From NCBI RefSeq assembly GCF_051097895.1, contig NZ_CP142525.1:150001-182000 (forward strand): a DNA stretch of 32,000 nucleotides, written 5' to 3'. The notes beneath the pieces were generated by a model, which saw nothing but the letters and a program-made list of their open reading frames with translations, made no database searches and was not told the DNA's origin. Each line of letters begins with the position of its first letter. Position 1 is the first letter of the stretch. This stretch comes from Psychrobacter sp. HD31. GTDB lineage: Bacteria > Pseudomonadota > Gammaproteobacteria > Pseudomonadales > Moraxellaceae. Below are positions 7,098 to 19,399 of the stretch, in pieces. The position numbers were made by a program, and so were the translations under genes.

Positions 7098-7120
7098 TAT
7101 GGTGGAGGTGGCGGGAGTTG
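7098..7120. repeat. int-distal att repeat (duplicate of the ssrA 3' end)
   Basis: TATGGTGGAGGTGGCGGGAGTTG is identical to 19041-19063. Confidence 0.9.
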
Positions 7121-7171
7121 TTTTTATCTATACAGCCCTTTATTTAAAAGGGATTAAGGTTTTCGTATTTT

Positions 7172-7194
7172 AAATATACCGTAAAATATACCGT
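7172..7194 (+). promoter_or_regulatory. Tandem TATACCGT motifs, candidate integrase arm-type sites (int-distal arm)
   Basis: AAATATACCGTAAAATATACCGT is identical to 18906-18928 and lies 52 bp inside the att repeat. Confidence 0.5.
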
Positions 7195-7701
7195 AATTTT
7201 ACAAAGTGTATTGCCTATTTGGGTATACCCCCTGCCGACTTTTGACCACATAAAAAAACGCTGGGGCTCGATGGTCTTTTAGACTAAGCCTTCCCACTTT
7301 GTACTCCCCCCTAGGTAGCTAAAAGCTCTGCCTATATAATTTGCAAATGGCTTTTCTCTTTTGTCCTTGTCATGTTTATTGCTCATACTCTTATACAGTC
7401 TACTACCGCCTTTTTGTCTATTCCATAAATTCATAAGACAAAAAAGGGAAATTTTTTTTCAAAATAGAAATTTTTTTATGAATGAGAGAGGGTGTGGTGT
7501 CCGCTTGGTATACCTTCCCAAACTTTTTGATACCCCCCTCCTTTGGGTAGGATGTTGGCATTACTATTATTTACTCTGACCTAAATAGCTTTTGGTTGAT
7601 TGCATTTATTGATTAATTAATGTCACATATGAGGCTTGCTATATTTATTGTTGGTTGACTCTTGAGGTTATATACTTATCATAGAAACGCCTTCAATTGC
7701 T

Positions 7702-7831
7702 TGCACACGCACGCACCCCCAAAACACGCTATTATGCTATTAATTCCTTTCTATGCTATGCGTACCAAGGGATACGAGGGATTGAGCTGTCTGCTATTGC
7801 GTGCTATTAGGTGCTATTCATGCTATTAATT
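7702..7831 (+). repeat. Iteron-bearing ~130-bp repeat, copy A (upstream of umuD)
   Basis: Long identical blocks are shared with 9703-9839 and, in inverted orientation, 17101-17220. It holds six GCTATT units, four of them at 9-10 bp spacing. Confidence 0.85.
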
Positions 7832-7902: not shown

Positions 7903-8328
7903 ATGACTATCAAAATACTTGGTAAACTTTCGGCAAAAACATATCAGCCCTTACCTTTCTTTATTGAAGCTGTACCGGCTGGCTTTCCATCACCAGCAGA
8001 GGGCTACGCTGACGCAAGTATTGATTTAAATGAACTTTGTATAACTCACCCTAGTGCAACCTTTTTAGTACGTTCTAGTGGGCACTCAATGATTAACAAA
8101 GGTATCTTTGATAATGACTTATTGGTTGTAGATAGAAGTATAGAAGCTGTATCAGGAGATATTGTTGTGTGCATGGTAAATGGGGAGTTTACTGTTAAGG
8201 AGCTAGTACTAGAGCAAAAACCTATGCTAGTTGCCCATAACCCTGAATACCAAAATATAGAGCTTAACAGTGATATGGACTTTGAAGTCTTTGGTGTTGT
8301 AACAAATGTGATACGTAGTTTTAAATAA
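7903..8328 (+). CDS. umuD: UmuD-like S24 peptidase (translesion polymerase V accessory subunit)
   Basis: 141 aa with the LexA/UmuD fold pattern. The serine motif is SGHSM and a downstream Lys lies in FTVKEL. It sits immediately upstream of umuC. Confidence 0.8.
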   Translation: MTIKILGKLSAKTYQPLPFFIEAVPAGFPSPAEGYADASIDLNELCITHPSATFLVRSSGHSMINKGIFDNDLLVVDRSIEAVSGDIVVCMVNGEFTVKELVLEQKPMLVAHNPEYQNIELNSDMDFEVFGVVTNVIRSFK

Positions 8329-8417
8329 GACAACTATTGTTGCCTAACATGGTTCCGTTTTATTCTCTGAAAAATAATCATGATATAGTAATCTCACTTA
8401 ATAAATGAGTGATACCC

Positions 8418-9698
8418 ATGTATGCCTTAATTGATTGCAACAGCTTCTATGCCAGTTGTGAAAAACTATTCAGACCTGACCTTAAATATAAACCCGTTGT
8501 TGTGTTATCTAACAATGATGGTTGTGTGGTTGCACGCTCTAAAGAAGCTAAAGCCTTGGGTATTAAAATGGGCGTACCATACTTTAAGGTAGAGGGCTTC
8601 TGTAAAGCAAATGATGTAAGTGTGTTTAGTTCTAACTATACCCTGTATTCCGATTTGTCTAACCGTGTTATGTGTACGCTTGAAAGCCTATGCCCTACGG
8701 TAGAGATATACTCTATTGATGAAGCATTTTTATACCTTGATGACTACCCAACAGCCATGCAAGATTTAGAAGCATACGGGCAAATGATTAAACAAACGGT
8801 ATATAAACATACTGGCATACCTGTGGGTGTTGGTATAGGAAAAACCAAAACATTGGCTAAATTGGCAAACTATGCTGCCAAAAAACACCCCGCTACCGAT
8901 GGCGTTTGTGTATTAGATAATAGGCGTTGGATTAACCGCTTAATGCAGATAACGCCCGTTGGCGAAGTTTGGGGCGTGGGTAGAAGATATGCCAAAACAC
9001 TTAACGACATGGGTATAAACACAGTAGCAGATTTGGCGAATATGCCGTCAGGGTTGGTTAGGCAAAAGTATGGGGTGGTATTAGAACGCACACAACGAGA
9101 ATTAAACGGTCAACCCTGCCTAGATATTGAGCCAGTACAGTTAAAAAAACAGATTGTATCCTCTCGCTCATTTTCTAAACGCATTACCAATAAGCAAGAT
9201 TTAACAGAGGCGTTATGCGGTCACACAGCTAAGGCGATGGCTAAGCTAAGGGAGCAAGATAGTTTATGTACAACCATAAGCGTATTTGCTCGTAATAGTC
9301 CGTTTAGTAAGCATGAAAAGTTTACCCCTGTATCAGGGCAATATACTTTTAATGAGGCGACAAATAACACTACAGAGATGATAAAAGCGGTTAGGCTTGT
9401 TATAGATAATATGTATCAGGACAAGGTTAATTATGCAAAGGCTGGCGTTATGCTATCAGGTATTGTACAAGAAGATGAGGTGCAACCCGATTTGTTTAGT
9501 TTTGCAGGTTTAAACCCAATCAAAAAAGCAAAAGATGATGCCATTATGCAGTTAATGGATAAACTGAATACAAATAACAGCCATCAATTATTTATTGCCA
9601 GTGAGGGTGTAAGGAATAAACAAGAATGGTTAATGAATAGGCAGTATTTAAGCCCGTGTTATACAACTAGGGTTAGTGATTTGGTTTGTGTTAACTGA
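8418..9698 (+). CDS. umuC: UmuC-like Y-family DNA polymerase (Pol V catalytic subunit)
   Basis: The N-terminus [15 protein letters not shown] and SIDEAFL are classic Y-family motifs. The ATG at 8418 is preferred over the GTG at 8409. Confidence 0.88.
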
Positions 9699-9702
9699 TA
9701 AT

Positions 9703-9839
9703 CCATTTGCTTGTATACGAACGTACCCAAAACACGCTATTATGCTATTAATTCCTTTCTATTCTATGCGTACCAAGGGACACAGAGGATTTAATAAAAT
9801 GCTATTGCGTGCTATTAGGTGCTATTTATGCTATTAATT
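9703..9839 (+). repeat. Iteron-bearing repeat, copy B (downstream of umuC)
   Basis: Direct repeat of copy A. It shares AAAACACGCTATTATGCTATTAATTCCTTTCTA, CTATGCGTACCAAGGGA and GCTATTGCGTGCTATTAGGTGCTATT.ATGCTATTAATT. Confidence 0.85.
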
Positions 9840-10091: not shown

Positions 10092-12308
10092 TTATTTGTC
10101 AGTAAATACTTTTGGGTTGAGTTCTATACTGGCTTTGTTGTCGTGTTTAATCTCTCGTATGTGGTTATTATCTTTTAATATCTTGATAAGTGGGTCTAGC
10201 TTTTTCTTTTTGCGTAAGCTTGTAGGTGTTATGCCTTGCTGTAGTTTTACCCTAGGAACAATAGTTATATTATTCTCACGGCAATAGTTAATAAGCCAGT
10301 TTTCTACTCTATCTGCTTGTACTAGTTTTTCATCAAAATCCGTATAGCCTCCATAGCGTTCCCACTCCATGAGGCTATGCTCTGCCAATTTAATGCCACT
10401 GACCATTAGTTCGGGTGTTATTGCCTCTGACCCTTCAAAAAATGCCAACACGGTTGCAATGCGTATTGCGTTTGGTAAGGCTCTACCTGCAAATGACTTT
10501 AGGTGTACAAACTTGCCAGCACGTCCAACCTTTTTTTCAATATCATTATAAAAGTTCATTGCTAGGGTGTCGGCTTCATCGGTAAGGGGTATAACAGGGC
10601 GTTCAATGCGTCCGTCTATACTTTGAGGTGGTATTTTATCGAGTAAAAACTGGCAACGCCTCCAGTATTCAACTAAGCGTTTATCTTTGTAAAACTCTCT
10701 ATTATTTTTCCATGTATCTGCGGTATGGGTACGCTTGCCCGCCAAGGTGTCGGGGGCAGTGAATAAAAACCTACACAAAAAGCCTTGCTCCATCATCATT
10801 TTGTCATTTAGCACTTTTTCTAAGGCTACCTTTTGCCCTAGCATGTTAATACACAAACGCACGTCATAAGCCACGCCTGACCCATTCGCATTTGAACGTG
10901 AGCGGTGACGTGCTACTGGCTCACCATCCCATGTTTCTGTACATATGGATAGGGTAGACCCTTGATTATCTGCACTAAATGAGTATGACCCAAATACTTT
11001 GCTTGCTTCACCGCCAGTGATATAAGCACTTTTAAGGTGTTCATGAATATAAGAGCCCACAAGGCTGTCTATTGTAAAATCGCTATATATGGCTTTTGGG
11101 TTTAATGGTTTGGGGTATTTTTGTTCGTATTCCTCTTTCGCTTTATTACCTTTGCATTGTGCTAGGGCTTTGTTATGCTCTTCTAATCTGTCTAGGTATT
11201 GGTTGTATTCTTTTTTGTCATGCTCAACTATCCGTAAATTAGCTTTATTGATACAAGAGGATTTTCTATCTCCACTATCTCCCTCAATCATAATAAACAA
11301 GCTACAAGGCTCGCCATATTGATGTTGGAATGAGCGGGCATTTACATGGTTTTGGGCTAAATAAGCCATCGCCCCAAGTACCGTATGACCAGCCATAGCT
11401 ATGCTGGCTTGTGAGTGCTGTGCTATAGCACTAACCGCATTTTTAGCCAGTGGTGGAAAAGCGTCTAATGGGTATCGGTTGGGTTCGCCCCGTTCATTTA
11501 TTAATAAAGTAAAAGGCTCGCTTTTATTAATTTCATCCCAAGATAGTTGTTTTTTTTCATCATCAGATAGGGTAGTAGATGTATTGGCTATATTCATACG
11601 GTGGATGTCTGCATTATCCATTAATCGTATAACCTCTGTATTATCTATCTCCCAGTCTATGGCAAATTCTAGGGCATATATAGCAACATTGGTATTGGTT
11701 AGTAGGGTCTTGTAGTCGCTAAGCTCATGTATGCCTATAGGGGCTATTAAACGCCCTTTGGCTTTAAATTGCCATTGCTTGGCTACATAGGCAAGGTTTG
11801 CAGGTGTAAAGCACACCATGATGGTTGCTGTACTATCTAGTTTGTAAAGATTTAGCCCCGCCTGTAGGTCTGCTACCAGGTAAACTTTATTATCCGTGGT
11901 AAAGGAAGAGCCGATAATAAAAGCACCTTGCGGATGTATTATTGGTTCAAAAATGGTTTTACCTTGAATACCTTTATCATCAATGGGTGGAATCATGGCG
12001 GTGTTAGTAGGCTGTAAATCACTATTTACCAAAGGTAATAATAAATGATTAATGCAATTTATATTGCCATTGTCTCCTTTAGTAAAGCCTTCTTTAGTGA
12101 GCAGTATATTACCGCTAATAATTGCACTTGCAGGTAGGTGTGCTAAAGGCTCATGGTATTGGCTTATTACATCATTGGTAGCACGGTTATTCTCAAATAA
12201 TCTTATGAGTTGTTGTGCAGGATTTTGATTTAATGATGGTTCATTTGCTGGCGGTTCATTGCCACCTTTGGTTGTACTTTGCTTAGTTTTATCGGTTTGG
12301 GTATTCAC
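10092..12308 (-). CDS. DUF3987 (YfjI-like) primase/helicase-like replication protein
   Basis: 738 aa. The central block YPLDAFPPLAKNAVSAIAQHSQASIAMAGHTVLGAMAYLAQ matches the characteristic DUF3987 N-terminal motif. A P-loop-like GDSGDRKS follows. The gene sits downstream of alpA, as in CP4-57. Confidence 0.65.
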   Translation of the reverse strand: MNTQTDKTKQSTTKGGNEPPANEPSLNQNPAQQLIRLFENNRATNDVISQYHEPLAHLPASAIISGNILLTKEGFTKGDNGNINCINHLLLPLVNSDLQPTNTAMIPPIDDKGIQGKTIFEPIIHPQGAFIIGSSFTTDNKVYLVADLQAGLNLYKLDSTATIMVCFTPANLAYVAKQWQFKAKGRLIAPIGIHELSDYKTLLTNTNVAIYALEFAIDWEIDNTEVIRLMDNADIHRMNIANTSTTLSDDEKKQLSWDEINKSEPFTLLINERGEPNRYPLDAFPPLAKNAVSAIAQHSQASIAMAGHTVLGAMAYLAQNHVNARSFQHQYGEPCSLFIMIEGDSGDRKSSCINKANLRIVEHDKKEYNQYLDRLEEHNKALAQCKGNKAKEEYEQKYPKPLNPKAIYSDFTIDSLVGSYIHEHLKSAYITGGEASKVFGSYSFSADNQGSTLSICTETWDGEPVARHRSRSNANGSGVAYDVRLCINMLGQKVALEKVLNDKMMMEQGFLCRFLFTAPDTLAGKRTHTADTWKNNREFYKDKRLVEYWRRCQFLLDKIPPQSIDGRIERPVIPLTDEADTLAMNFYNDIEKKVGRAGKFVHLKSFAGRALPNAIRIATVLAFFEGSEAITPELMVSGIKLAEHSLMEWERYGGYTDFDEKLVQADRVENWLINYCRENNITIVPRVKLQQGITPTSLRKKKKLDPLIKILKDNNHIREIKHDNKASIELNPKVFTDK

Positions 12309-12789: not shown

Positions 12790-13658
12790 AATATACCCCC
12801 AACACGTCCGTTAGTAGTTTTTGCCATTTCATCATTTAGTCTATTGATGGTATGACGTATAAAATCGGCATTGGTTTCACTGCTTAGTTGTGCTAGTCGT
12901 GCAAGGGCTTGGATTTGGCTTATACTATCTAGTGCTTTGATTGTTGCAAAAAGGCTGGTTAGGTTGTTTAAGGCTTCATAAACGCATAATAAATCATCTA
13001 TATTGCTTCGTGCCTCACCAACTGGTAAAGAGATGGTTTCATTTTGGATATTTGCATTACCTTGTGGTATATCAGTTACGTTATTAGAAGGGTTATTACT
13101 GGCTGGTACTATTGCGTCACTGGGAGGTCTAATCACCTTATAACCATCATATTCTGCCTGTAACTCTTGCATAGTGACAATATTGCTTAGGATATTATCC
13201 ATTGCTTCTAGTTTCGCTTTACTGTTACGGGTGTCTAGCCCTGCTTTTTGGTTTAATTCAACTTCTGCATTTAGTTGATTGAGTGCATTATGAGCATATT
13301 TGCACCAGTCGTTAAGGGTAGGTGTTTGATGATTAAATGCCTTTGTTGGCTCACTTGCCAGCTTGGCGGGCATGTGCGTTTGCAACTGAATACGCATTAG
13401 GTCGATACTTTTTATTACTTCCTTACTGTCTGTTGTAAAATCCATGGTTAGGATTTCATCAATAGTTTGTAGGTGTCTGATTGTTTGTGTATCGTGCGAG
13501 TGGGTTTGAGTATAAGCCTTGGTAGCCGTTTTTAGAGCGTCTAATAGCTCTATTTGCTCTACCTTGCAGGTAATGCTGTCTTGACTGTCGCCAAGTAGCT
13601 GTAACAGCTCATCACGGTTAATTTGTGTGGTTATTGGGGTTTGGTTTGATGTGGTCAT
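12786..13658 (-). CDS. Hypothetical protein, apparently alpha-helical
   Basis: 290-aa ORF with 4-nt start/stop overlaps on both sides, consistent with translational coupling. No family was recognised. Confidence 0.6.
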   Translation of the reverse strand: MTTSNQTPITTQINRDELLQLLGDSQDSITCKVEQIELLDALKTATKAYTQTHSHDTQTIRHLQTIDEILTMDFTTDSKEVIKSIDLMRIQLQTHMPAKLASEPTKAFNHQTPTLNDWCKYAHNALNQLNAEVELNQKAGLDTRNSKAKLEAMDNILSNIVTMQELQAEYDGYKVIRPPSDAIVPASNNPSNNVTDIPQGNANIQNETISLPVGEARSNIDDLLCVYEALNNLTSLFATIKALDSISQIQALARLAQLSSETNADFIRHTINRLNDEMAKTTNGRVGGIL

Positions 13659-14074
13659 GATTGACCTCCTAATAGATTTTGAGTTAATGCCACGCTATGA
13701 AAATTCATAGGGTAACGGGTCTTACTCTCGGTACTATTAGTAACCGCCCTGCATATTCGCCTAATGGCTTTTGTATTTTGCAACGTCAACCCGTTATAAG
13801 GTGGTAAATTGATTACCATAGATACAACGGTTTTACCCTGTTGGGTAAATTGCTTTGTACTTTTATACTGGTTTGGTTGAGAGCCGTGCCAGTTTTTTTG
13901 CACAAAAAAAGCCAATGGTTCACGGATTGGCTGTCCGCTAATAGTTTTAGAGAGGTCTCCAGTATAGGCGAATGCACAACTAAAAGGCAAGCACAATAAT
14001 ATAAATATGATTATTGCCATGCAGGTATCTTTTATTCTTTTAGCTAGTTTATGTTTGGGTTGTTTGGTGGTCAT
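13655..14074 (-). CDS. Hypothetical small secreted or membrane-anchored protein
   Basis: 139 aa. A basic N-terminus (KHKLAKRIK) is followed by a hydrophobic segment AIIIFILLCLPFSCAFA. It overlaps both neighbours by 4 nt. Confidence 0.55.
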   Translation of the reverse strand: MTTKQPKHKLAKRIKDTCMAIIIFILLCLPFSCAFAYTGDLSKTISGQPIREPLAFFVQKNWHGSQPNQYKSTKQFTQQGKTVVSMVINLPPYNGLTLQNTKAIRRICRAVTNSTESKTRYPMNFHSVALTQNLLGGQS

Positions 14075-15171
14075 TTGTTTGCTCCGTTATTAATTGAGTC
14101 ACTTATAGACGCAAGTAACAATCCAGCGGGGTTGTAATGAGTTAAACCATGGGTCATGGCATGGTCAAAGATAAGCCCTGTCTCTCGGATTATCGCCATA
14201 GCTTGGTCGCTGTCTGCTTTCTCTTGAACATCAAGCATGATGGCTTCAATATTGCCGTGTGATATATCCCTAATATCCATAGAACCAATCAGCGGTTTAA
14301 CAAAATGAATATAGGCAGCATACAAACGGTCGTTTGTGCTTTTATCTAGTTGAGCTTTATGCTCTGCAAACCACCCTTGTGCAATGTCATCAAATAGATT
14401 GGAGCGGTGCATGGTTGTGGTTTTTACTACTGGGGAGCTTGGATTTAAGTGTATAAAGCCGTTTATCTCATCGCTAAAGGTTTGTAGCCTTGTTTGTAGA
14501 ATTTGATTAATTACGGCTAAATGGTGGGCGTTATCGTCTTTGCTCATCATGATAAAACCAATATCATCACGGTAAAGGTTGTGGTTATGGCGTGTGGTTG
14601 TATCTTCAATGTTGTTTAAGGGGCTACTCCCAAAACTTGCACAGTCGGCAATAAAGCGGTGTCCTTTAAGTGTAACCATTGTGAGGAGATACTCGCCTCG
14701 TTTTGACGGGTAAACGTCATTTATATTGAGGGGGTCAGTAGGCTTGATTTGCTCTATGTCGTGAACATAGGCAAAGTTGCTGGCACGTGTACTCCACTCG
14801 TCATTATGTGACTTGTATTTAGTAGAGTAGTCGGGGTGGTTGCGTATGTCATCATTGGTTAAACCATTGTTAAGGGCATGAGATAACTCCTCATAGTCCA
14901 TATATTGGCGGTTAACAATTAATATACTATCTACGGTATCATTGATACATTCTAGCCAGCCATTGGCTATGTGAATGGTCATATCCGCTACATAATCCCA
15001 ATCGGTACAATCAAAGCCAACATTGATATGGTTGCCTTTTTTACTGGTAGCAATAAGCACATACTTGTGTTGCTTTGCCTGCTCTAGGTTAGTTACCCAA
15101 GGTTTACCGTTAGCAGTGGCGTTGTCATTAAATGGGTCGGGGTGTACGGTATGAATTGGTTGTTTAGTCAT
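14071..15171 (-). CDS. Hypothetical protein: unknown N-terminal region fused to an integrase core-binding (SAM-like) domain, with no catalytic domain
   Basis: 366 aa. Residues ~260-350 align at roughly 45-50 percent identity (hand count) with residues ~101-190 of the island integrase. The shared blocks are FD.IAQ.W.AE.K..L.K.T.DR.Y.AY...VKP.IG.M.I.DI and IRE.G.IF.HA...GL...NPA. Confidence 0.6.
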   Translation of the reverse strand: MTKQPIHTVHPDPFNDNATANGKPWVTNLEQAKQHKYVLIATSKKGNHINVGFDCTDWDYVADMTIHIANGWLECINDTVDSILIVNRQYMDYEELSHALNNGLTNDDIRNHPDYSTKYKSHNDEWSTRASNFAYVHDIEQIKPTDPLNINDVYPSKRGEYLLTMVTLKGHRFIADCASFGSSPLNNIEDTTTRHNHNLYRDDIGFIMMSKDDNAHHLAVINQILQTRLQTFSDEINGFIHLNPSSPVVKTTTMHRSNLFDDIAQGWFAEHKAQLDKSTNDRLYAAYIHFVKPLIGSMDIRDISHGNIEAIMLDVQEKADSDQAMAIIRETGLIFDHAMTHGLTHYNPAGLLLASISDSINNGANK

Positions 15172-15173
15172 GA

Positions 15174-15464
15174 TTAAGCTACCCCGTCATCGTTATAGTT
15201 TTCGTCATTTGAGGCTTGGGCTTTGAACCAAGCGTGCACGTCCTCATTTGCCCATGCTGTTACTGTTGGGCTTAATTTATGAGGTTTAGGGAATAAGCCC
15301 TCTTTAGTCCATTTCCAAAGCGTGCTTTCGCCAATGGGTAAATAGGGTAGTAGCTGTTTTGCTCGACTAAAGCCATTAACGGGTAAGGCTGGGGGCTGGG
15401 TGTTGCTAGTTTGTCTATCTAATTCGCTTTTATTTGCGTTTTGAGAGGTGTTTGCGGTAGTCAT
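15174..15464 (-). CDS. alpA: AlpA-family helix-turn-helix regulator (excision/transcription activator)
   Basis: LPIGESTLWKWTKEGLFPKPHKLSPTVTAWANEDVHAWF matches the Phage_AlpA pattern. The start at M18 (15464) is preferred because AAGGAA lies upstream. The longest ORF would start at 15515. Confidence 0.8.
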   Translation of the reverse strand: MTTANTSQNANKSELDRQTSNTQPPALPVNGFSRAKQLLPYLPIGESTLWKWTKEGLFPKPHKLSPTVTAWANEDVHAWFKAQASNDENYNDDGVA

Positions 15465-15578
15465 AGTACAATTCCTTATCTTTAAGTTGTAAATGCTTAA
15501 ATACACTATTGTCATCTATCACCGTGGTAATGAATGACGCTAGATGTTTGGAATTGTAGAAGTTGGAGCGTTTCAGTG

Positions 15579-15590
15579 TTCTAATTAGAA
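15579..15590. promoter_or_regulatory. Perfect palindrome TTCTAATTAGAA upstream of alpA (candidate operator)
   Basis: 12-bp perfect palindrome. Its 10-bp core TCTAATTAGA recurs at 15652-15661. Confidence 0.35.
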
Positions 15591-15640
15591 TAATTAGTTT
15601 TATTTAGAATGTTAACTTATTGTTTTTTAATATTTTACAT

Positions 15641-15672
15641 AAGAATACCGCTCTAATTAGAACGGTATTCTT
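15641..15672 (-). terminator. 10-bp perfect hairpin at the end of the 285-aa cargo gene
   Basis: AAGAATACCG-12 nt loop-CGGTATTCTT. The loop contains the stop codon and the TCTAATTAGA palindrome. There is no clean U-tract on the minus strand. Confidence 0.4.
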
Positions 15673-16510
15673 TTGCTTCATCAATAACTTTTTTAAAGGT
15701 ATCTTTACTTATAAAGTCTATATCATGAGTATCTGCATGAATTTTTAATTTTTGGTACAAGGTGTAAGGATGTTTTGTATCAAAGCCTCCTTCGTCTAGT
15801 AATAAGTGAATTAGTTTTAAATATGATGATTTGCTTTTATGGTTAAGTTTATCTGATGGTTTTATTAGCTCTTTTGACTTTTCTTTAGTTGAGGTTGATT
15901 GAAGCTTTGGCTGGCATATCACTTGTACTTGGTGATTTGGGATGAAGATAGTATCTTTGGTTAGTTTCGCCCCTTTGATAATATCTTTTGGTAATTCGGA
16001 TGGTTTTGTTTTATTAGGTAGCATAAATGATAAGGTATATTCAAAAGGCATAAAAACAGTTGAAGTTTTTTTAGCTTCTTCATTCATCAATACTGCATAT
16101 CGGCAATACACCTCATTGGTTATGCCCATAAGTAAATTTTTAATAGTTTCGCTATATCCATGCCAGCCAGTAGCAGAAAAATACCCACCAATAGGTTTTA
16201 ACTCTGTAGTTGTTGTATTCCATTTTTCCAAGTATTTATTTATGTCATCATGAGAATAAAAGTCGTCAGTAACTAAAAAACCATAACTCGCTAAATTAAA
16301 GCAAATGTCAATCTGATTATTAAAATATAGGTTGTATAAATCTATCATCTGAAAGCTAGGATTAGACAATCTTAATTTATGTAATGCAGTCTCTATTGAA
16401 ATATAATCACTCATAAATACACCCATGCACCCACAAAGTAAAATAAGAGCTATGGCGGGCAAGGTTAGGGTGCATAATGCCCTTGCGTTCGGGTAATTAC
16501 TCCTAGCCAT
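15653..16510 (-). CDS. Hypothetical cargo protein, possibly a signal-anchored or lipoprotein
   Basis: 285-aa ORF in the AT-rich slot. The N-terminus MARSNYPNARALCTLTLPAIALILLCGC has a positive n-region, a hydrophobic core and a lipobox-like LCGC. Alternative starts are at 16426 and 16414. No family was recognised. Confidence 0.55.
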   Translation of the reverse strand: MARSNYPNARALCTLTLPAIALILLCGCMGVFMSDYISIETALHKLRLSNPSFQMIDLYNLYFNNQIDICFNLASYGFLVTDDFYSHDDINKYLEKWNTTTTELKPIGGYFSATGWHGYSETIKNLLMGITNEVYCRYAVLMNEEAKKTSTVFMPFEYTLSFMLPNKTKPSELPKDIIKGAKLTKDTIFIPNHQVQVICQPKLQSTSTKEKSKELIKPSDKLNHKSKSSYLKLIHLLLDEGGFDTKHPYTLYQKLKIHADTHDIDFISKDTFKKVIDEAKEYRSN

Positions 16511-16536
16511 AGCAAACTGGTTAACCCATTGGAGGG

Positions 16537-16806
16537 TTAAAATAGTTTTTCTAATGCCTCATGTTTTAAAGTTATTAAAGCGGTCTTGTCATCTTCAAAT
16601 CTTATAAAAACCGTTACGTCATCAACATTGCCTGTTAAGCTGTATCCTGCTAGACCACCGAGTAAAGCACCAACGCCACCAGTTAGCATACCTGCTGTAA
16701 GTGCAAACATGCTACCTTGGAATACACTGTAGCCATGCTTTTTGGCTTGGTGGTGGTCGATTATGTCAATGCTGTATATCTCGTTAAGTTTACGACCTTT
16801 TGCCAC
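16537..16806 (-). CDS. Small glycine-zipper membrane protein, probably the -1 frame continuation of ORF 16761-16943
   Basis: 89-aa ORF with GMLTGGVGALLGGLAGYS. It has a GTG start with no SD. It is reachable from the upstream ORF by a -1 shift at A_AAA_AAC. Confidence 0.5.
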   Translation of the reverse strand: MAKGRKLNEIYSIDIIDHHQAKKHGYSVFQGSMFALTAGMLTGGVGALLGGLAGYSLTGNVDDVTVFIRFEDDKTALITLKHEALEKLF

Positions 16807-16943
16807 TGGTTTTTTTCTTTAAAAAAACGTCCTTTTTCTTCCATCTCATAAAAATAAATAAAACTGCCACTAATCCAACCATCTTTGATTAAGTAGTGGT
16901 TACTGTCATGCGTTGTAAAATTGTGTATTCCTAAAAAAGCCAT
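16761..16943 (-). CDS. Upstream 60-aa ORF (zero frame) of the split cargo gene
   Basis: ATG at 16943 is preceded by GAGGG 7 nt upstream. It overlaps the 89-aa ORF by 46 nt in a different frame. Confidence 0.45.
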   Translation of the reverse strand: MAFLGIHNFTTHDSNHYLIKDGWISGSFIYFYEMEEKGRFFKEKNQWQKVVNLTRYTALT

Positions 16944-17100
16944 CTTATACCCTCGTGTTGGTATAGCACAGTTAATTTATGGTCATTTGACTACACAGGT
17001 TTTTAATTCCGCGTTTCAAACGCGAAACTAAAAAAACATCATGCTATTTTTAAACCTTTAAGTTTTTATTTAAAATCAATGATTTAGTTTGGCTTTAAAA

Positions 17101-17220
17101 CAATAATAGCATTAATAGCACGCACTAGCATTTTATTAAATCCTCTGTATCCCTTGGTACGCATAGCATAGAAAGGAATTAATAGCATAATAGCGTGTTT
17201 CGGGGGTGCGTGCGTGTGCA
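17101..17220 (-). repeat. Iteron-bearing repeat, copy C (inverted, mosaic of A and B)
   Basis: The reverse complement begins TGCACACGCACGCACCCCC as in A and continues AGAGGATTTAATAAAATGCTA as in B. It has one GCTATT unit fewer. Confidence 0.85.
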
Positions 17221-17635
17221 TATCTGCATAGATAAATTACGCCTAAAATGGGGTTAGGTTTGCTCGGATTTCAAATCTGACCAAAAACTAACCACGCATG
17301 ACCTGCCAATATTGCCATTTAAAAAATCTTGTTATGATAATATATATAATAAAAACAATAACTTAATAAATAAAAAAGAGAAAAAACAAAAAATCACGCC
17401 CGATGGGTAGAAAAACGGGCAGGGCTGGCAAGTGAGCCAACACGGTGTAACCGTGTGTGTAAAACATTGGCTATGGTGTGGGTTGGTAAGATGTAAAGAC
17501 TAATAAGGATATATGTAATATATAATATATATATATTTATATATCTATTAATATTCTTAATCTATTTCTTACTTTCCCCTCTATACCAGTGTATCCTTTT
17601 TTATTTTATTAAATGGTTATCATTACTATTTAATA

Positions 17636-18880
17636 TTATTGGTTAATAGACTTTCCTGTATCAGATTTAAAATCAACGTGTATCACATTATCCAATGTGC
17701 CAAGCTTTGCATTATCAATAATTTTAGCCCAATCATTCATCATCTTGGTTCTATACTTAATATACATAGCACCATCATAAGCTTTGCTTACCTTGTTATC
17801 TTTATCGTGGGCTAATTGTAGCTCAATAGCTTCGTGCATATATTCAAGTTCATGTAGGGTTGTGCTGGCAAGACCTCTAAAGCCGTGTGTGGTCATCTTC
17901 CCTTTGTAACCCATTTTGTATAGAGCATTTATAAAAGCATGTGAACTTAAAGGCTGGCGTTTGCTGGTGTTATAAAATACATATTTTTCACTAAACCCCA
18001 ATCCTTTGATTTGTTGTAGTAGCTCAATAACAGGTGGTGCTAACGGTACCAGGTGTTTACGTTTTACTTTCATTTTTTCGGCTGATAAACGTATTATTTT
18101 ATCTTTAAAATCAATATCTGCCCATTCAAGCATTCTTACCTCATTGGTTCTCAAAAAGGTGTAGCAAGTAAACCACAAGCCTAGTTTAACCAATACATGC
18201 CCTTTATAGTTGTCAATATCTTGTAATAGCTGGGGTAGTTGTCGTATCGTAATACGGTTGTGGTGCTTTGTTATACTCGGCTGTATGGCTTCTGTGAGGT
18301 TTATAGCTGGGTTGTGAGTAGCTAAACCTTGCCTAATAGCATGCTTAAATATTTGCCCAACCTCACGTATGGTACGTTTTGACATCTCTATTGCTCCCCG
18401 TTTTTCAATGGCTTTTCCAATAGCTAAAATATCAGGAGGGGCTATATCTGTAATTATCATATGTCCTATAGCGGGTTTTACATCCCTTTCATAAGCAGAA
18501 TAATTACGGTCATATGTTTTCTTAGCAAGGTAAGTTTTACGCTCTGCATACCACTCTTGTGCGATGTTATCAAACAATAGAGAGCCATCTACTTTGGCTT
18601 TTTGCTCTTTTTTGTGTTGCTTAGGGTCTGTGCCTTGGGCAATCATTTGGCGGACGTGTTGGTGTTTTTGGCGGGCTTGTGCCAATGACAGTATAGGATA
18701 CTTACCAAGAGTAAGGCTTTGGCGTTTACCGTTAAATTTATAGTCTGATACCCAAACCTTATTACCAGTATGACGTACCCAAAGACGTAAGCCGTCTCCA
18801 TCACTGTATTTGTCAGGGCGGGCAGGGGTACATTTATCGGTTGGCTTCAACCGTTTAATGGCGGTATCTGTTAGAGGCAT
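17636..18880 (-). CDS. int: P4/CP4-57-type tyrosine integrase (arm-binding DUF4102 N-terminus, SAM-like core-binding domain, catalytic domain)
   Basis: 414 aa. The N-terminus LTDTAIKRLKP...DGDGLRLWV is typical of P4-type integrases. Catalytic-domain motifs LRTNEV and HGFRGLAST are present. It lies adjacent to ssrA. Confidence 0.9.
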   Translation of the reverse strand: MPLTDTAIKRLKPTDKCTPARPDKYSDGDGLRLWVRHTGNKVWVSDYKFNGKRQSLTLGKYPILSLAQARQKHQHVRQMIAQGTDPKQHKKEQKAKVDGSLLFDNIAQEWYAERKTYLAKKTYDRNYSAYERDVKPAIGHMIITDIAPPDILAIGKAIEKRGAIEMSKRTIREVGQIFKHAIRQGLATHNPAINLTEAIQPSITKHHNRITIRQLPQLLQDIDNYKGHVLVKLGLWFTCYTFLRTNEVRMLEWADIDFKDKIIRLSAEKMKVKRKHLVPLAPPVIELLQQIKGLGFSEKYVFYNTSKRQPLSSHAFINALYKMGYKGKMTTHGFRGLASTTLHELEYMHEAIELQLAHDKDNKVSKAYDGAMYIKYRTKMMNDWAKIIDNAKLGTLDNVIHVDFKSDTGKSINQ

Positions 18881-18905
18881 TGACGGTATATTTCCTTAAT
18901 TAAAT

Positions 18906-18928
18906 AAATATACCGTAAAATATACCGT
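18906..18928 (+). promoter_or_regulatory. Tandem TATACCGT motifs, candidate integrase arm-type sites (int-proximal arm)
   Basis: Identical 23-mer to 7172-7194. An inverted ACGGTATA lies at 18883-18890 next to the int start codon. Confidence 0.5.
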
Positions 18929-19040
18929 TATTTTAAATAGATTACAAGAGACTATACTAGACTATATAATAGTCTAAATCCCCTGTAAGCCTTTAAAAAT
19001 ATAGCCCAGTCGGATTATATCAGACTGGGCTATATTGGTG

Positions 19041-19063
19041 TATGGTGGAGGTGGCGGGAGTTG
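19041..19063. repeat. int-proximal att repeat (functional 3' end of ssrA plus 2 nt)
   Basis: Identical to 7098-7120. Confidence 0.9.
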
Positions 19064-19399
19064 AACCCGCGTCCGCCAGCACTACGCTCATGAATCTACA
19101 TGTTTAGGGTCTGTCTATAAATTTAATCCGTTCCGAACCGACAGTCAGGTAAGATTGGACGAGTCTTTAAATTTAGTCTCATTAGTCAAGACACCTAACA
19201 AGACGGACCTATGTGCGTTCGCTTCGGGGTGATCAACCTAACCATAGGTAGTTAGTGACGACCCAAGCAGCCCTTAGGCTGCTAGAGCGTAAGTTTCGTC
19301 GTTTGCGACTATTTTAAAATATACTTGATTTACGAGAGGGTATAACTCTCGACATGCATCATTGAGTTTCATCACCAGCGTCGAAGCCAGAACACCCCC
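19043..19399 (-). ncRNA. ssrA: tmRNA (transfer-messenger RNA)
   Basis: The 5' end GGGGGTGTTCTGGCTTCGAC pairs with the 3' end CACCTCC-A-CCA, including a G3-U wobble. The T-arm is GGGTTCAACTCCC. The tag reading frame GCAAACGACGAAACTTACGCTCTAGCAGCCTAA (19274-19306) encodes ANDETYALAA. Confidence 0.95.

What the first reader, a model, noticed from the sequence alone, without database searches (positions are those of the whole stretch)
15516..17635. AT-rich cargo slot between alpA and int: candidate new phage-exclusion or abortive-infection module
The slot between the regulatory/replication genes and the integrase is where P4-like satellites and many integrase-associated islands carry variable anti-phage cargo. 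This segment is visibly more AT-rich than the rest of the island. It has its own upstream copy of the island repeat (17101-17220) and ends in a perfect 10-bp hairpin. It encodes two products. One is a 285-aa protein with a signal-anchor or lipobox-like N-terminus (ALCTLTLPAIALILLCGC), a Lys/Ser-rich linker (STSTKEKSKELIKPSDKLNHKSKSS) and a small helical C-terminal domain. The other is a small protein with a glycine-zipper transmembrane helix (GMLTGGVGALLGGLAGYS), a motif common in small membrane-permeabilising proteins. I recognise neither as a member of a named defence family. Two envelope-associated proteins of unknown family in this position suggest either a membrane-targeting abortive-infection pair or a superinfection-exclusion system that blocks DNA entry.
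Basis: inference. Interest (0 to 1): 0.78.

Follow-up and report, generated by a model that had tools for sequence, protein, structure and literature searches.

The report
Island regulator gene plus broken cargo gene
The AT-rich stretch between the integrase and alpA of this Psychrobacter tmRNA island is a real variable region, but it is not a pair of envelope proteins: one gene most likely encodes the island's own DNA-binding switch for alpA, and the other is a small membrane-protein gene split by a frameshift.

Summary
The sequence features are real. The slot is AT-rich (32.9% GC), a copy of the island repeat lies at 17113-17220, and a 10-bp-arm hairpin lies at 15641-15672. Both protein descriptions are wrong in important ways.

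- **The "285-aa signal-anchor protein".** It is a 253-aa soluble protein starting at M33. Its only homologue (45% identity, also directly upstream of alpA) lacks the upstream ATG, and the hydrophobic stretch lies in non-coding leader.
- **The "89-aa glycine-zipper protein".** It is the 3' part of a ~135-aa gene split by a -1 frameshift at G-AAAAAAA-C.
- **Defence homology.** Neither protein matches PADLOC, Pfam, PHROGs or NCBIfam in a meaningful way.
- **Related islands.** In 14 related Psychrobacter islands, recognisable cargo (HicAB, RelA/SpoT PDC-S33) sits next to int. Every island keeps a different orphan gene directly upstream of alpA.
- **Operators.** That orphan gene is followed by island-specific dyad repeats over a promoter-like site. 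Its C-terminal domain and the dyads are exchanged together between islands.

Best reading (about 0.45): the 253-aa protein is an island-specific regulator, probably a repressor, of the alpA operon, analogous to Stl or CI. The frameshifted gene is the only true cargo here. A defence function is untested.

The parts
15653..16414 (-). True coding sequence of the larger gene: a 253-aa soluble orphan protein (VH441_00635). It has an N-terminal domain of about 170 aa, a Lys/Ser-rich basic linker (pI 9.9) and a three-helix C-terminal domain of about 57 aa.
   Evidence: PGAP start and self-hit. Only one homologue, P0123, at 45% identity. Start codon conserved in the DNA alignment. Codon score 0.24. 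No hydrophobic segment. Helices predicted at 198-207, 216-229 and 237-251 in a low-confidence model.
16415..16510 (-). This is non-coding 5' leader, not part of the protein.
   Evidence: ATG(M1) and ATG(M29) read AAG in the homologous contig, which has stops in all frames. Codon score -0.01.
15579..15590 (.). Dyad O1, TTCTAATTAGAA (exact). It overlaps the -10 hexamer of the promoter-like site in front of alpA.
   Evidence: Nearly identical in the homologue's contig: TTATTCTAAATAGAAC against TTATTCTAATTAGAAC.
15598..15609 (.). Dyad O2 (TTTTATTTAGAA, 2 mismatches), in the spacer between the -35 and -10 hexamers, 19 bp from O1.
15651..15662 (.). Dyad O3 (CTCTAATTAGAA, 1 mismatch). It forms the centre of the terminal hairpin and overlaps the TAG stop codon (15653-15655).
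15587..15615 (-). Promoter-like site TTAACA-17-TATTCT, pointing toward alpA.
   Evidence: This is a consensus match only (9 of 12 positions).
15641..15672 (.). Hairpin with perfect 10-bp arms. With its palindromic centre it is a 32-bp near-palindrome at the 3' end of the 253-aa gene. Likely a terminator and/or operator.
   Evidence: The 3' arm is not conserved in the homologue's contig.
16761..16943 (-). The 60-aa ORF, which is the 5' part of the small gene. It has a strong ribosome-binding site (GAGGG) and an ATG.
16809..16817 (-). G-AAAAAAA-C tract. It is an in-frame A_AAA_AAC heptamer where a -1 shift (or one extra A) joins the two small ORFs.
   Evidence: Sequence reading. Frame switch in codon score. 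No stimulatory structure downstream.
16537..16806 (-). The 89-aa ORF (VH441_00640), which is the 3' part of the small gene. It holds the Gly-rich GxxxG segment and a short beta-beta-alpha tail.
16521..16540 (.). 7-bp-arm hairpin TTAACCC-N6-GGGTTAA, overlapping the stop codon of the small gene.
17113..17220 (-). Third copy of the ~110-nt island repeat, carrying four TGCTATTA-type octamers. The other copies are at 7702-7831 and 9726-9839.
17385..17515 (-). Candidate small RNA. It has promoter-like hexamers upstream, two hairpins and a U-run. It contains 19 nt (17424-17442) perfectly complementary to the mRNA of the 290-aa gene (13344-13362).
   Evidence: (I10). Not conserved next to the closest integrase relative.
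15174..15464 (-). alpA (Phage_AlpA family). The start at 15464 is inferred from alignment with 9 homologues.
17636..18880 (-). Tyrosine integrase adjacent to the 3' end of ssrA.

Best explanation
The slot holds two unrelated things.

(1) The gene directly upstream of alpA (15653-16414, 253 aa, cytoplasmic) is the island's own lineage-specific DNA-binding regulator, most likely a repressor.
- Inferred mechanism: its C-terminal three-helix domain, helped by the basic Lys/Ser linker, binds the three TTCTAATTAGAA-type dyads. These lie between its stop codon and alpA and cover a promoter-like site.
- That would keep the alpA-primase (excision and replication) operon silent.
- The fast-evolving N-terminal domain of about 170 aa would be the signal-sensing part, possibly sensing a helper-phage protein.
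- This is functionally analogous to SaPI Stl or a phage CI immunity module, but the protein family is an orphan with two known members.

(2) The int-proximal part (16537-17635) is the real accessory hotspot. Here it contains a copy of the iteron-bearing island repeat, a candidate small RNA, and one small gene of about 135 aa for a probable single-pass Gly-zipper membrane protein.
- That gene is interrupted by a -1 frameshift at an A7 tract.
- It is therefore a decaying or slippage-dependent cargo gene of unknown function.

SHOWN: gene starts, the frameshift, the orphan status, positional conservation, the dyads, and the joint exchange of C-terminal domain and dyads.
INFERRED: DNA binding, repression, and sensing.
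For: - **Position.** Every one of 14 distinct related islands has one orphan gene (187-620 aa, no Pfam or PADLOC hit) directly upstream of alpA. In L018 a 1388-aa gene has been inserted behind it. Recognisable cargo (HicAB, RelA/SpoT PDC-S33) always lies on the int side of that gene.
- **Synteny of the homologue.** The only homologue of the 253-aa protein is also followed by alpA.
- **Dyads.** Each island has its own tandem dyad or direct repeats in the 110-190 nt between that gene and alpA, spaced 19-22 bp apart. In the window, three TTCTAATTAGAA-type sites cluster within 84 bp, and only one other site with 2 or fewer mismatches exists in 32 kb. O1 and O2 overlap the -10 hexamer and the spacer of a promoter-like site.
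- **Cassette exchange, example 1.** L005 and L022 are 88-91% identical through int plus the first 197 codons of the gene, and again from alpA onward. They differ in a cassette of about 310 bp made of the C-terminal ~75 residues plus the dyads. L022's cassette is homologous to that of the otherwise distant L002.
- **Cassette exchange, example 2.** L013 and L036 share only the C-terminal domain (59% identity) and share CTAA(C/T)TAG dyads.
- **Co-divergence.** L005 and L040 (49% identical) have related but diverged TGC...GCA dyads. The window and L011 (45% identical proteins) share the TTCTAA half-sites.
- **AlpA is not the binder.** L005 and L022 share 91%-identical alpA DNA yet have different dyads.
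- **Literature parallel.** In Gram-positive PICIs, accessory genes lie between int and the repressor gene (PMC6092414).
Against: - No DNA-binding family is detected in the protein by Pfam, NCBIfam, PDB sequence search, or hhalign against AlpA.
- Both structure models are unusable (pLDDT 39.6 and 38.7), and the fold search returned no match below E = 0.001.
- The C-terminal domain is not basic (pI 6.4).
- Cross-class similarity of the C-terminal domains is not significant. Yet L036 carries a dyad identical to the window's O1.
- C-terminal domain and dyads are physically contiguous, so linkage alone could explain their joint exchange.
- L005 and L022 also differ in two small genes downstream of alpA.
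- The gene is co-directional with alpA, not divergent as stl is.
- A slot that is always filled is also seen at P4 defence hotspots (PMC13586616).
- The promoter is only a 9-of-12 consensus match.
Confidence: 0.45

Rival explanations
1. One reading: the two products form a membrane-targeting abortive-infection pair or a superinfection-exclusion system acting at the envelope.
For: - The slot is a hotspot that carries toxin-antitoxin and candidate defence genes in relatives.
- The small gene has a GxxxG-rich segment and weak matches to phage protein families of unknown function (phrog_17658 at E = 7e-4, phrog_888 at E = 5e-3).
Against: - The larger protein has no signal peptide, lipobox or membrane segment once its true start is used.
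- The small gene is frameshifted.
- There are no PADLOC hits.
- The two genes are separated by a hairpin and a separately conserved leader.
- The larger gene's homologue is found next to alpA in a contig that starts just downstream of the small gene's position, so no co-occurrence is shown.
Confidence: 0.05
2. The 253-aa protein is a stand-alone, cytoplasmic, novel anti-phage or helper-interference protein. On this reading it is cargo, not a regulator, and the dyads in front of alpA are bound by another factor from the island, host or helper phage.
For: - It is an orphan, AT-rich and fast-evolving, and sits next to an integrase, as many new defence genes do (PMC13586616).
- No DNA-binding domain is detectable.
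- Mosaic domain shuffling also occurs in defence proteins.
Against: - The position is filled in all related islands, even the minimal 1.0-kb slots, while identifiable cargo is added on the int side.
- The C-terminal domain is exchanged together with the dyads in two independent cases.
- None of ten tested slot proteins of this position hits PADLOC, apart from chance-level matches.
Confidence: 0.2
3. The small gene is intact in vivo. Programmed -1 ribosomal frameshifting or transcriptional slippage at A_AAA_AAC would yield both a 60-aa soluble product and a ~135-aa membrane-anchored product. This would be functional cargo, for example a toxin or an exclusion factor.
For: - A canonical slippery heptamer lies in the correct frame.
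- The -1 frame opens only 3 codons before it.
- Coding signal continues in the new frame.
- Seven or more other A7 tracts in the window lie in intact genes, so a systematic assembly error is unlikely.
Against: - There is no stimulatory structure downstream (z = -0.64).
- No homologue is available to show that the arrangement is conserved.
- A single-base deletion or a single assembly error at a homopolymer explains the same facts.
Confidence: 0.15

Closest known systems
SaPI/PICI master repressor Stl (Rpr) of Gram-positive phage-inducible chromosomal islands
   Same: - A highly divergent, island-specific protein encoded between int and the excision/replication module.
- Accessory genes are inserted between int and it (PMC6092414).
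- Operator-like repeats lie at the promoter of the induction module.
- The layout is two domains joined by a linker.
   Different: - No sequence or profile similarity.
- The inferred DNA-binding part is C-terminal, not N-terminal.
- The gene is co-directional with alpA rather than divergent.
- DNA binding, repression and derepression by a helper protein are all untested here.
- The host is a Gram-negative bacterium, where no island repressor has been established.
Gram-negative PICIs with the AlpA activator (EcCICFT073 type)
   Same: int, alpA and a DUF3987-type primase-helicase lie in one direction, in an island of about 12 kb at a conserved RNA gene.
   Different: - No packaging or capsid-redirection genes were recognised.
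- An extra orphan gene with its own dyads sits between int and alpA.
- Helper dependence is unknown.
P4-like satellites: the int-adjacent defence hotspot, and ori/crr iterons bound by the alpha primase
   Same: - A variable hotspot next to the integrase (PMC13586616).
- Octamer iterons clustered in separate ~110-nt repeats. The resemblance to P4 ori/crr rests on my own knowledge of P4.
- A candidate antisense RNA recalls P4 CI RNA, also from my own knowledge.
   Different: - psu, delta, sid and the P4 alpha protein are not detected.
- The iteron sequence is different.
- The small RNA is unverified and not conserved in the nearest relative.
Phage immunity modules (a CI-type repressor plus cognate operators exchanged as a cassette)
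   Same: The recognition domain and its operators are swapped together between otherwise near-identical elements. The dyads are tandem, about two helical turns apart, and lie over a promoter.
   Different: - No HTH_3, HTH_XRE or S24 peptidase domain.
- No divergent cro-like partner is evident.

Membership tests
Known or candidate anti-phage defence systems (PADLOC-DB 2.0) | Significant match of at least one slot protein to a defence-system model | tested here: not met
   No hits for the 285-aa, 89-aa or 60-aa products at E <= 0.1.
Bacterial lipoprotein or signal-anchored envelope protein | A translated N-terminal hydrophobic signal, with a lipobox cysteine for a lipoprotein | tested here: not met
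   The hydrophobic stretch lies upstream of the conserved start codon. The homologue lacks the ATG and has stops there. The mature 253-aa protein has a maximum hydropathy of 0.79.
Glycine-zipper small membrane proteins (Pfam Gly-zipper families) | A profile match, or a clearly hydrophobic GxxxG helix in an intact small ORF | tested here: inconclusive
   The GxxxGxxGxxxGxxxG pattern is present. No Gly-zipper Pfam family hits; only GLUG (E = 0.024) and C19orf12 (E = 0.097), both below their cut-offs. Hydropathy of 1.55 is borderline. The ORF is the 3' part of a frameshifted gene.
Stl/Rpr-type island master repressor (functional class) | Encoded between int and the excision/replication module, with accessory genes on its int side | tested here: met
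   PMC6092414.
Stl/Rpr-type island master repressor (functional class) | A recognisable DNA-binding (HTH) domain | tested here: inconclusive
   No Pfam, NCBIfam or PDB match. Three C-terminal helices appear only in low-confidence models.
Stl/Rpr-type island master repressor (functional class) | Cognate operators at the promoter it controls | tested here: inconclusive
   Island-specific dyads lie over a promoter-like site, and they co-vary with the C-terminal domain. Binding itself is not shown.
Stl/Rpr-type island master repressor (functional class) | Divergent transcription from the module it represses | tested here: not met
   The gene is co-directional with alpA.
Stl/Rpr-type island master repressor (functional class) | Derepression by a helper-phage protein | not testable with these tools
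   Needs genetics or biochemistry.
P4-like satellite | Core genes psu, delta, sid, ash and alpha, in addition to int and alpA | tested here: not met
   Pfam and PHROGs on all island ORFs identify only int, AlpA, a DUF3987 primase-helicase and UmuD/UmuC.
Programmed -1 ribosomal frameshift site | An X_XXY_YYZ heptamer in the zero frame | tested here: met
   A_AAA_AAC lies in the frame of the 60-aa ORF.
Programmed -1 ribosomal frameshift site | A downstream stimulatory structure and conservation in homologues | tested here: not met
   Fold z-score -0.64. No homologues exist to compare.

The most novel reading that the evidence does not exclude
The orphan genes directly upstream of alpA in these Psychrobacter int-alpA-primase islands may be a hypervariable class of master repressors for Gram-negative PICI-like elements. 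On this reading, modular C-terminal recognition domains are exchanged together with their operators, and variable N-terminal domains sense helper phages. That would supply the 'missing' repressor of Gram-negative phage-inducible islands. The same slot may also encode a P4 CI-like antisense RNA (17385-17515) targeting the replication-module mRNA.
Probability: 0.3. Interest if true: 0.65.

Novelty: new variant of a known kind. Interest (0 to 1): 0.4.

Why it matters
For Gram-negative phage-inducible islands, only the activator AlpA is established. Whether they have a repressor, and how they sense a helper phage, is stated as unclear in the founding paper (PMC6092414). A positionally fixed, fast-evolving gene with its own operators in front of alpA gives a directly testable candidate.

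The result also has a practical lesson for defence-gene mining. Not every orphan next to an integrase is cargo, and here the true accessory position is only the int-proximal half of the slot. It also shows two annotation traps: an in-frame upstream ATG that creates a false signal peptide, and a homopolymer frameshift that creates a false small membrane protein.

Tried and rejected
- **Family searches.** Pfam, PHROGs, NCBIfam and PADLOC on both products and on a frameshift-corrected 135-aa sequence gave nothing above thresholds.
- **Homologue searches.** The word-indexed search of 5.8 billion proteins returned self-hits only. The exhaustive phmmer search of 1.84 billion representatives found one homologue. 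tblastn against phages and plasmids found nothing. Metagenome and viral contig scans with the two-member alignment found only the same contig.
- **Structure.** AlphaFold2 on the 285-aa ORF and on the 2-sequence alignment gave pLDDT 39.6 and 38.7. Foldseek against the PDB gave no match below E = 0.001. PDB sequence searches gave only chance hits.
- **Excisionase-like N-terminus.** I thought the N-termini of the pre-alpA proteins shared an excisionase-like winged helix. This was not supported: hmmsearch scores were about 0-2.5 bits and hhalign against AlpA gave a probability of 0.1%.
- **Homology among C-terminal domains.** I thought the C-terminal domains of different classes were remote homologues. 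Shuffle tests gave p >= 0.03 uncorrected.
- **Stimulatory structure.** None was found downstream of the slippery site.
- **Conservation of the small-RNA candidate.** The closest integrase relative shows none.
- **GCTGGCAAG as a specific antisense target.** This was weakened because the word is over-represented in most related loci on both strands.
Full report
**Context**

The window comes from Psychrobacter sp. HD31. Both slot products match its proteins VH441_00635 and VH441_00640 at 99-100% identity. A tmRNA gene lies at 19043-19399(-).

A 23-bp direct repeat of the 3' end of the tmRNA gene (19041-19063 and 7098-7120) bounds an island of about 11.9 kb. Read on the - strand, the island runs in this order:
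- int (17636-18880)
- the slot
- alpA (15174-15464/15515)
- a 366-aa protein with only an integrase central domain
- three unknown genes
- a DUF3987 primase-helicase (10092-12308)
- on the other strand, umuD and umuC (7903-9698)

**Check of the observation**

These features are real:
- The slot has 32.9% GC against 39.3% for the rest of the island. That is the lowest 0.3% of equal-sized windows. The larger gene has 30.3% GC.
- A third, inverted copy of a ~110-nt island repeat lies at 17113-17220.
- The 10-bp-arm hairpin lies at 15641-15672.

The two protein descriptions do not hold.

*The 285-aa ORF.* NCBI's annotation starts it at M33, giving 253 aa.
- An exhaustive phmmer search of 1.84 billion representative proteins found only one homologue. 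This is P0123, at 45% identity, aligned from query residue 49.
- P0123's contig (L011, 1265 bp) is 71% identical to the window over the upstream 117 nt. It reads AAG at both upstream ATGs and has stops in every frame.
- The ATG aligned to M33 and the GGGTGCAnGGGTG element before it are conserved.
- The leader codons score -0.01 on a codon-usage log-odds scale, against 0.24 for the gene.
- Without the leader, the protein has no hydrophobic segment.

*The 89-aa ORF.* It begins at a GTG without a ribosome-binding site and overlaps a 60-aa ORF that has GAGGG-N7-ATG.
- The two ORFs are joined by a -1 shift at G-AAAAAAA-C (16809-16817).
- Coding signal moves from one frame to the other at that point: 0.25 before, -0.03 in the 60-aa ORF's tail, and 0.38/0.34 in the 89-aa frame.
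- The real unit is therefore a gene of about 135 aa carrying a frameshift.
- There is no stimulatory structure downstream.
- Seven or more other A7 tracts in the window lie in intact genes.
- No homologue exists to tell a mutation from programmed slippage or a single assembly error.

**What the genes are not**

- Neither product, nor the corrected 135-aa sequence, matches PADLOC, Pfam, NCBIfam or PDB sequences meaningfully. The only PHROG matches are weak, to families of unknown function.
- Both AlphaFold2 models of the larger protein were unusable, and the fold search returned no match below E = 0.001.

**Comparison with related islands**

I used integrase and AlpA relatives to collect 14 distinct Psychrobacter islands with the order int, slot, alpA, primase.
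- The slot is 1.0 to 6.6 kb long.
- Recognisable cargo always lies on the int side. It comprises HicA/HicB in L003, and a RelA/SpoT protein in L014, L015 and L036. The L014 copy matches the PADLOC candidate PDC-S33 at E = 1.7e-120.
- Every island also has one gene without any family match directly upstream of alpA.
- These genes are mutually dissimilar by BLASTP and HMM searches. They are mosaic:
  - L005 and L022 share the first 197 residues at 87% identity, but not the C-terminus.
  - L022 and L002 share only the C-terminus (53%).
  - L013 and L036 share only the C-terminus (59%).
- The homologue of the window's 253-aa protein is likewise followed by alpA.

**Operators**

In each island, the 110-190 nt between that gene and alpA hold island-specific tandem dyad or direct repeats, 19-22 bp apart.

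| Island | Repeat |
|---|---|
| Window | TTCTAATTAGAA-type sites ×3 |
| L011 | TTCTAAAT half-sites |
| L003 | ACCCCATTTAGGGT ×2 |
| L005 | ATGCAAGCAT ×2 |
| L040 | TTGCGTCGCAT ×2 |
| L006 | TTTCTA(T)TAGAAA ×2 |
| L010 | TCGCAAGTTGCGA ×2 |
| L013 and L036 | CTAA(C/T)TAG dyads |

In the window, the three sites lie within 84 bp (15579-15662). Only one other site with 2 or fewer mismatches exists in 32 kb.
- O1 overlaps the -10 hexamer of a promoter-like TTAACA-17-TATTCT facing alpA.
- O2 lies in that promoter's spacer.

L005 and L022 are 88-91% identical on both sides of a cassette of about 310 bp. The cassette consists of exactly the C-terminal ~75 codons plus the dyads. AlpA cannot set the specificity, because those two islands share 91%-identical alpA DNA yet have different dyads.

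**Interpretation**

The most economical reading is that the 253-aa protein is the island's own regulator of the alpA operon, probably a repressor. Its C-terminal domain would recognise the adjacent dyads. Its variable N-terminal domain could serve as a sensor.

This parallels SaPI Stl and phage immunity cassettes. It also parallels the placement of accessory genes between int and the repressor gene in Gram-positive PICIs. For Gram-negative PICIs, the founding paper states that a repressor is unclear (PMC6092414).

The caveats are serious:
- No DNA-binding domain is detectable.
- The C-terminal domain is not basic.
- Domain and dyads are contiguous, so linkage is a confounder.
- L005 and L022 also differ in two small downstream genes.
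- L036 has a dyad identical to the window's O1 without significant C-terminal similarity.
- P4 defence hotspots are also almost never empty (PMC13586616).

I put this reading at about 0.45. A novel cytoplasmic defence or interference protein is at about 0.2. The original envelope-pair model is at about 0.05.

**The int-proximal half**

This half (16537-17635) corresponds to the true accessory position. It holds three things:
- The frameshifted small gene.
- The repeat copy, whose TGCTATTA octamers are clustered in all three copies at about 10-bp spacing. From my knowledge of P4, this resembles ori/crr iterons.
- A possible ~130-nt RNA on the - strand. It has 19 nt perfectly complementary to the 290-aa gene's mRNA.

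The RNA lead is weakened in two ways. Its core word GCTGGCAAG is generally over-represented in these elements. It is also not conserved next to the closest integrase relative.

**Verdict**

The hotspot idea is supported. The envelope-targeting defence pair is not supported. Defence activity remains untested. The more interesting and testable product of this analysis is a candidate repressor-operator module in a Gram-negative AlpA-type island.

Noticed in passing
window 7702-7831 (+), 9726-9839 (+), 17113-17220 (-): A ~110-nt repeat occurs in three copies at 89-96% identity. Each copy carries 4-6 TGCTATTA-type octamers, two about 8 bp apart at one end and up to four at about 10-bp spacing at the other. 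It looks like an iteron cluster (ori/crr-like) for the DUF3987 primase-helicase rather than a promoter. AT-rich tracts lie nearby at 17310-17380 and 17490-17560.
   Followed up: partly
window 7903-8328 and 8409-9698 (+): umuD (Peptidase_S24) and umuC (Y-family polymerase) form a cargo module at the att-distal end of the island. The module is bracketed by two direct copies of the 110-nt repeat.
   Followed up: partly
window 17385-17515 (-), target at 13344-13362: A candidate small RNA between int and the cargo gene. It has promoter-like hexamers, two hairpins and a U-run, and folds with z = -2.8. It carries 19 nt perfectly complementary to the mRNA of the 290-aa gene, and partial matches (10-11 nt) in the 143-aa and primase genes. 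This is reminiscent of P4 CI RNA. It is not conserved in locus L031.
   Followed up: partly
window 10512, 12546, 13354, 17424, 17864; loci L002-L030: The 9-mer GCTGGCAAG occurs 5 times in the window, all inside the island (0.24 expected). It occurs 2-8 times in most related islands and phage contigs, on both strands (about 0.1-0.2 expected). It may be a Chi-like or protein-recognition word enriched in Psychrobacter mobile elements.
   Followed up: partly
window 14071-15171 (-): A 366-aa protein just downstream of alpA has only the integrase central (core-binding) domain at its C-terminus (Phage_int_M, E = 1.2e-9). It has no arm-binding or catalytic domain. It may be an att-binding accessory or directionality factor.
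   Followed up: no
window 7171-7206 and 18905-18940: A 36-nt direct repeat (92% identity) containing TAAATATACCGTAAAATATACCGT lies near both island ends. These are probably arm-type integrase binding sites.
   Followed up: no
window 13706-13795 (-): A sub-threshold Rfam match to sRNA-Xcc1 (36.6 bits against a gathering score of 53; E = 0.002), inside the 139-aa ORF.
   Followed up: no
L011 105-131: The homologue P0123 is probably annotated 9 codons too short. An upstream ATG (MNIKYYSLSMALSE...) aligns with the window's M33 start and restores the YxS(I/L)xxAL motif.
   Followed up: yes
L018 3311-3417 and L021 5656-5968: In one relative, the operator-plus-leader segment that normally precedes alpA is duplicated on both sides of a 1388-aa gene. 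This suggests cargo was inserted under the same control region.
   Followed up: partly
L013 9561-10437: The pre-alpA gene of this island is split by an inserted IS element (two transposase ORFs).
   Followed up: no
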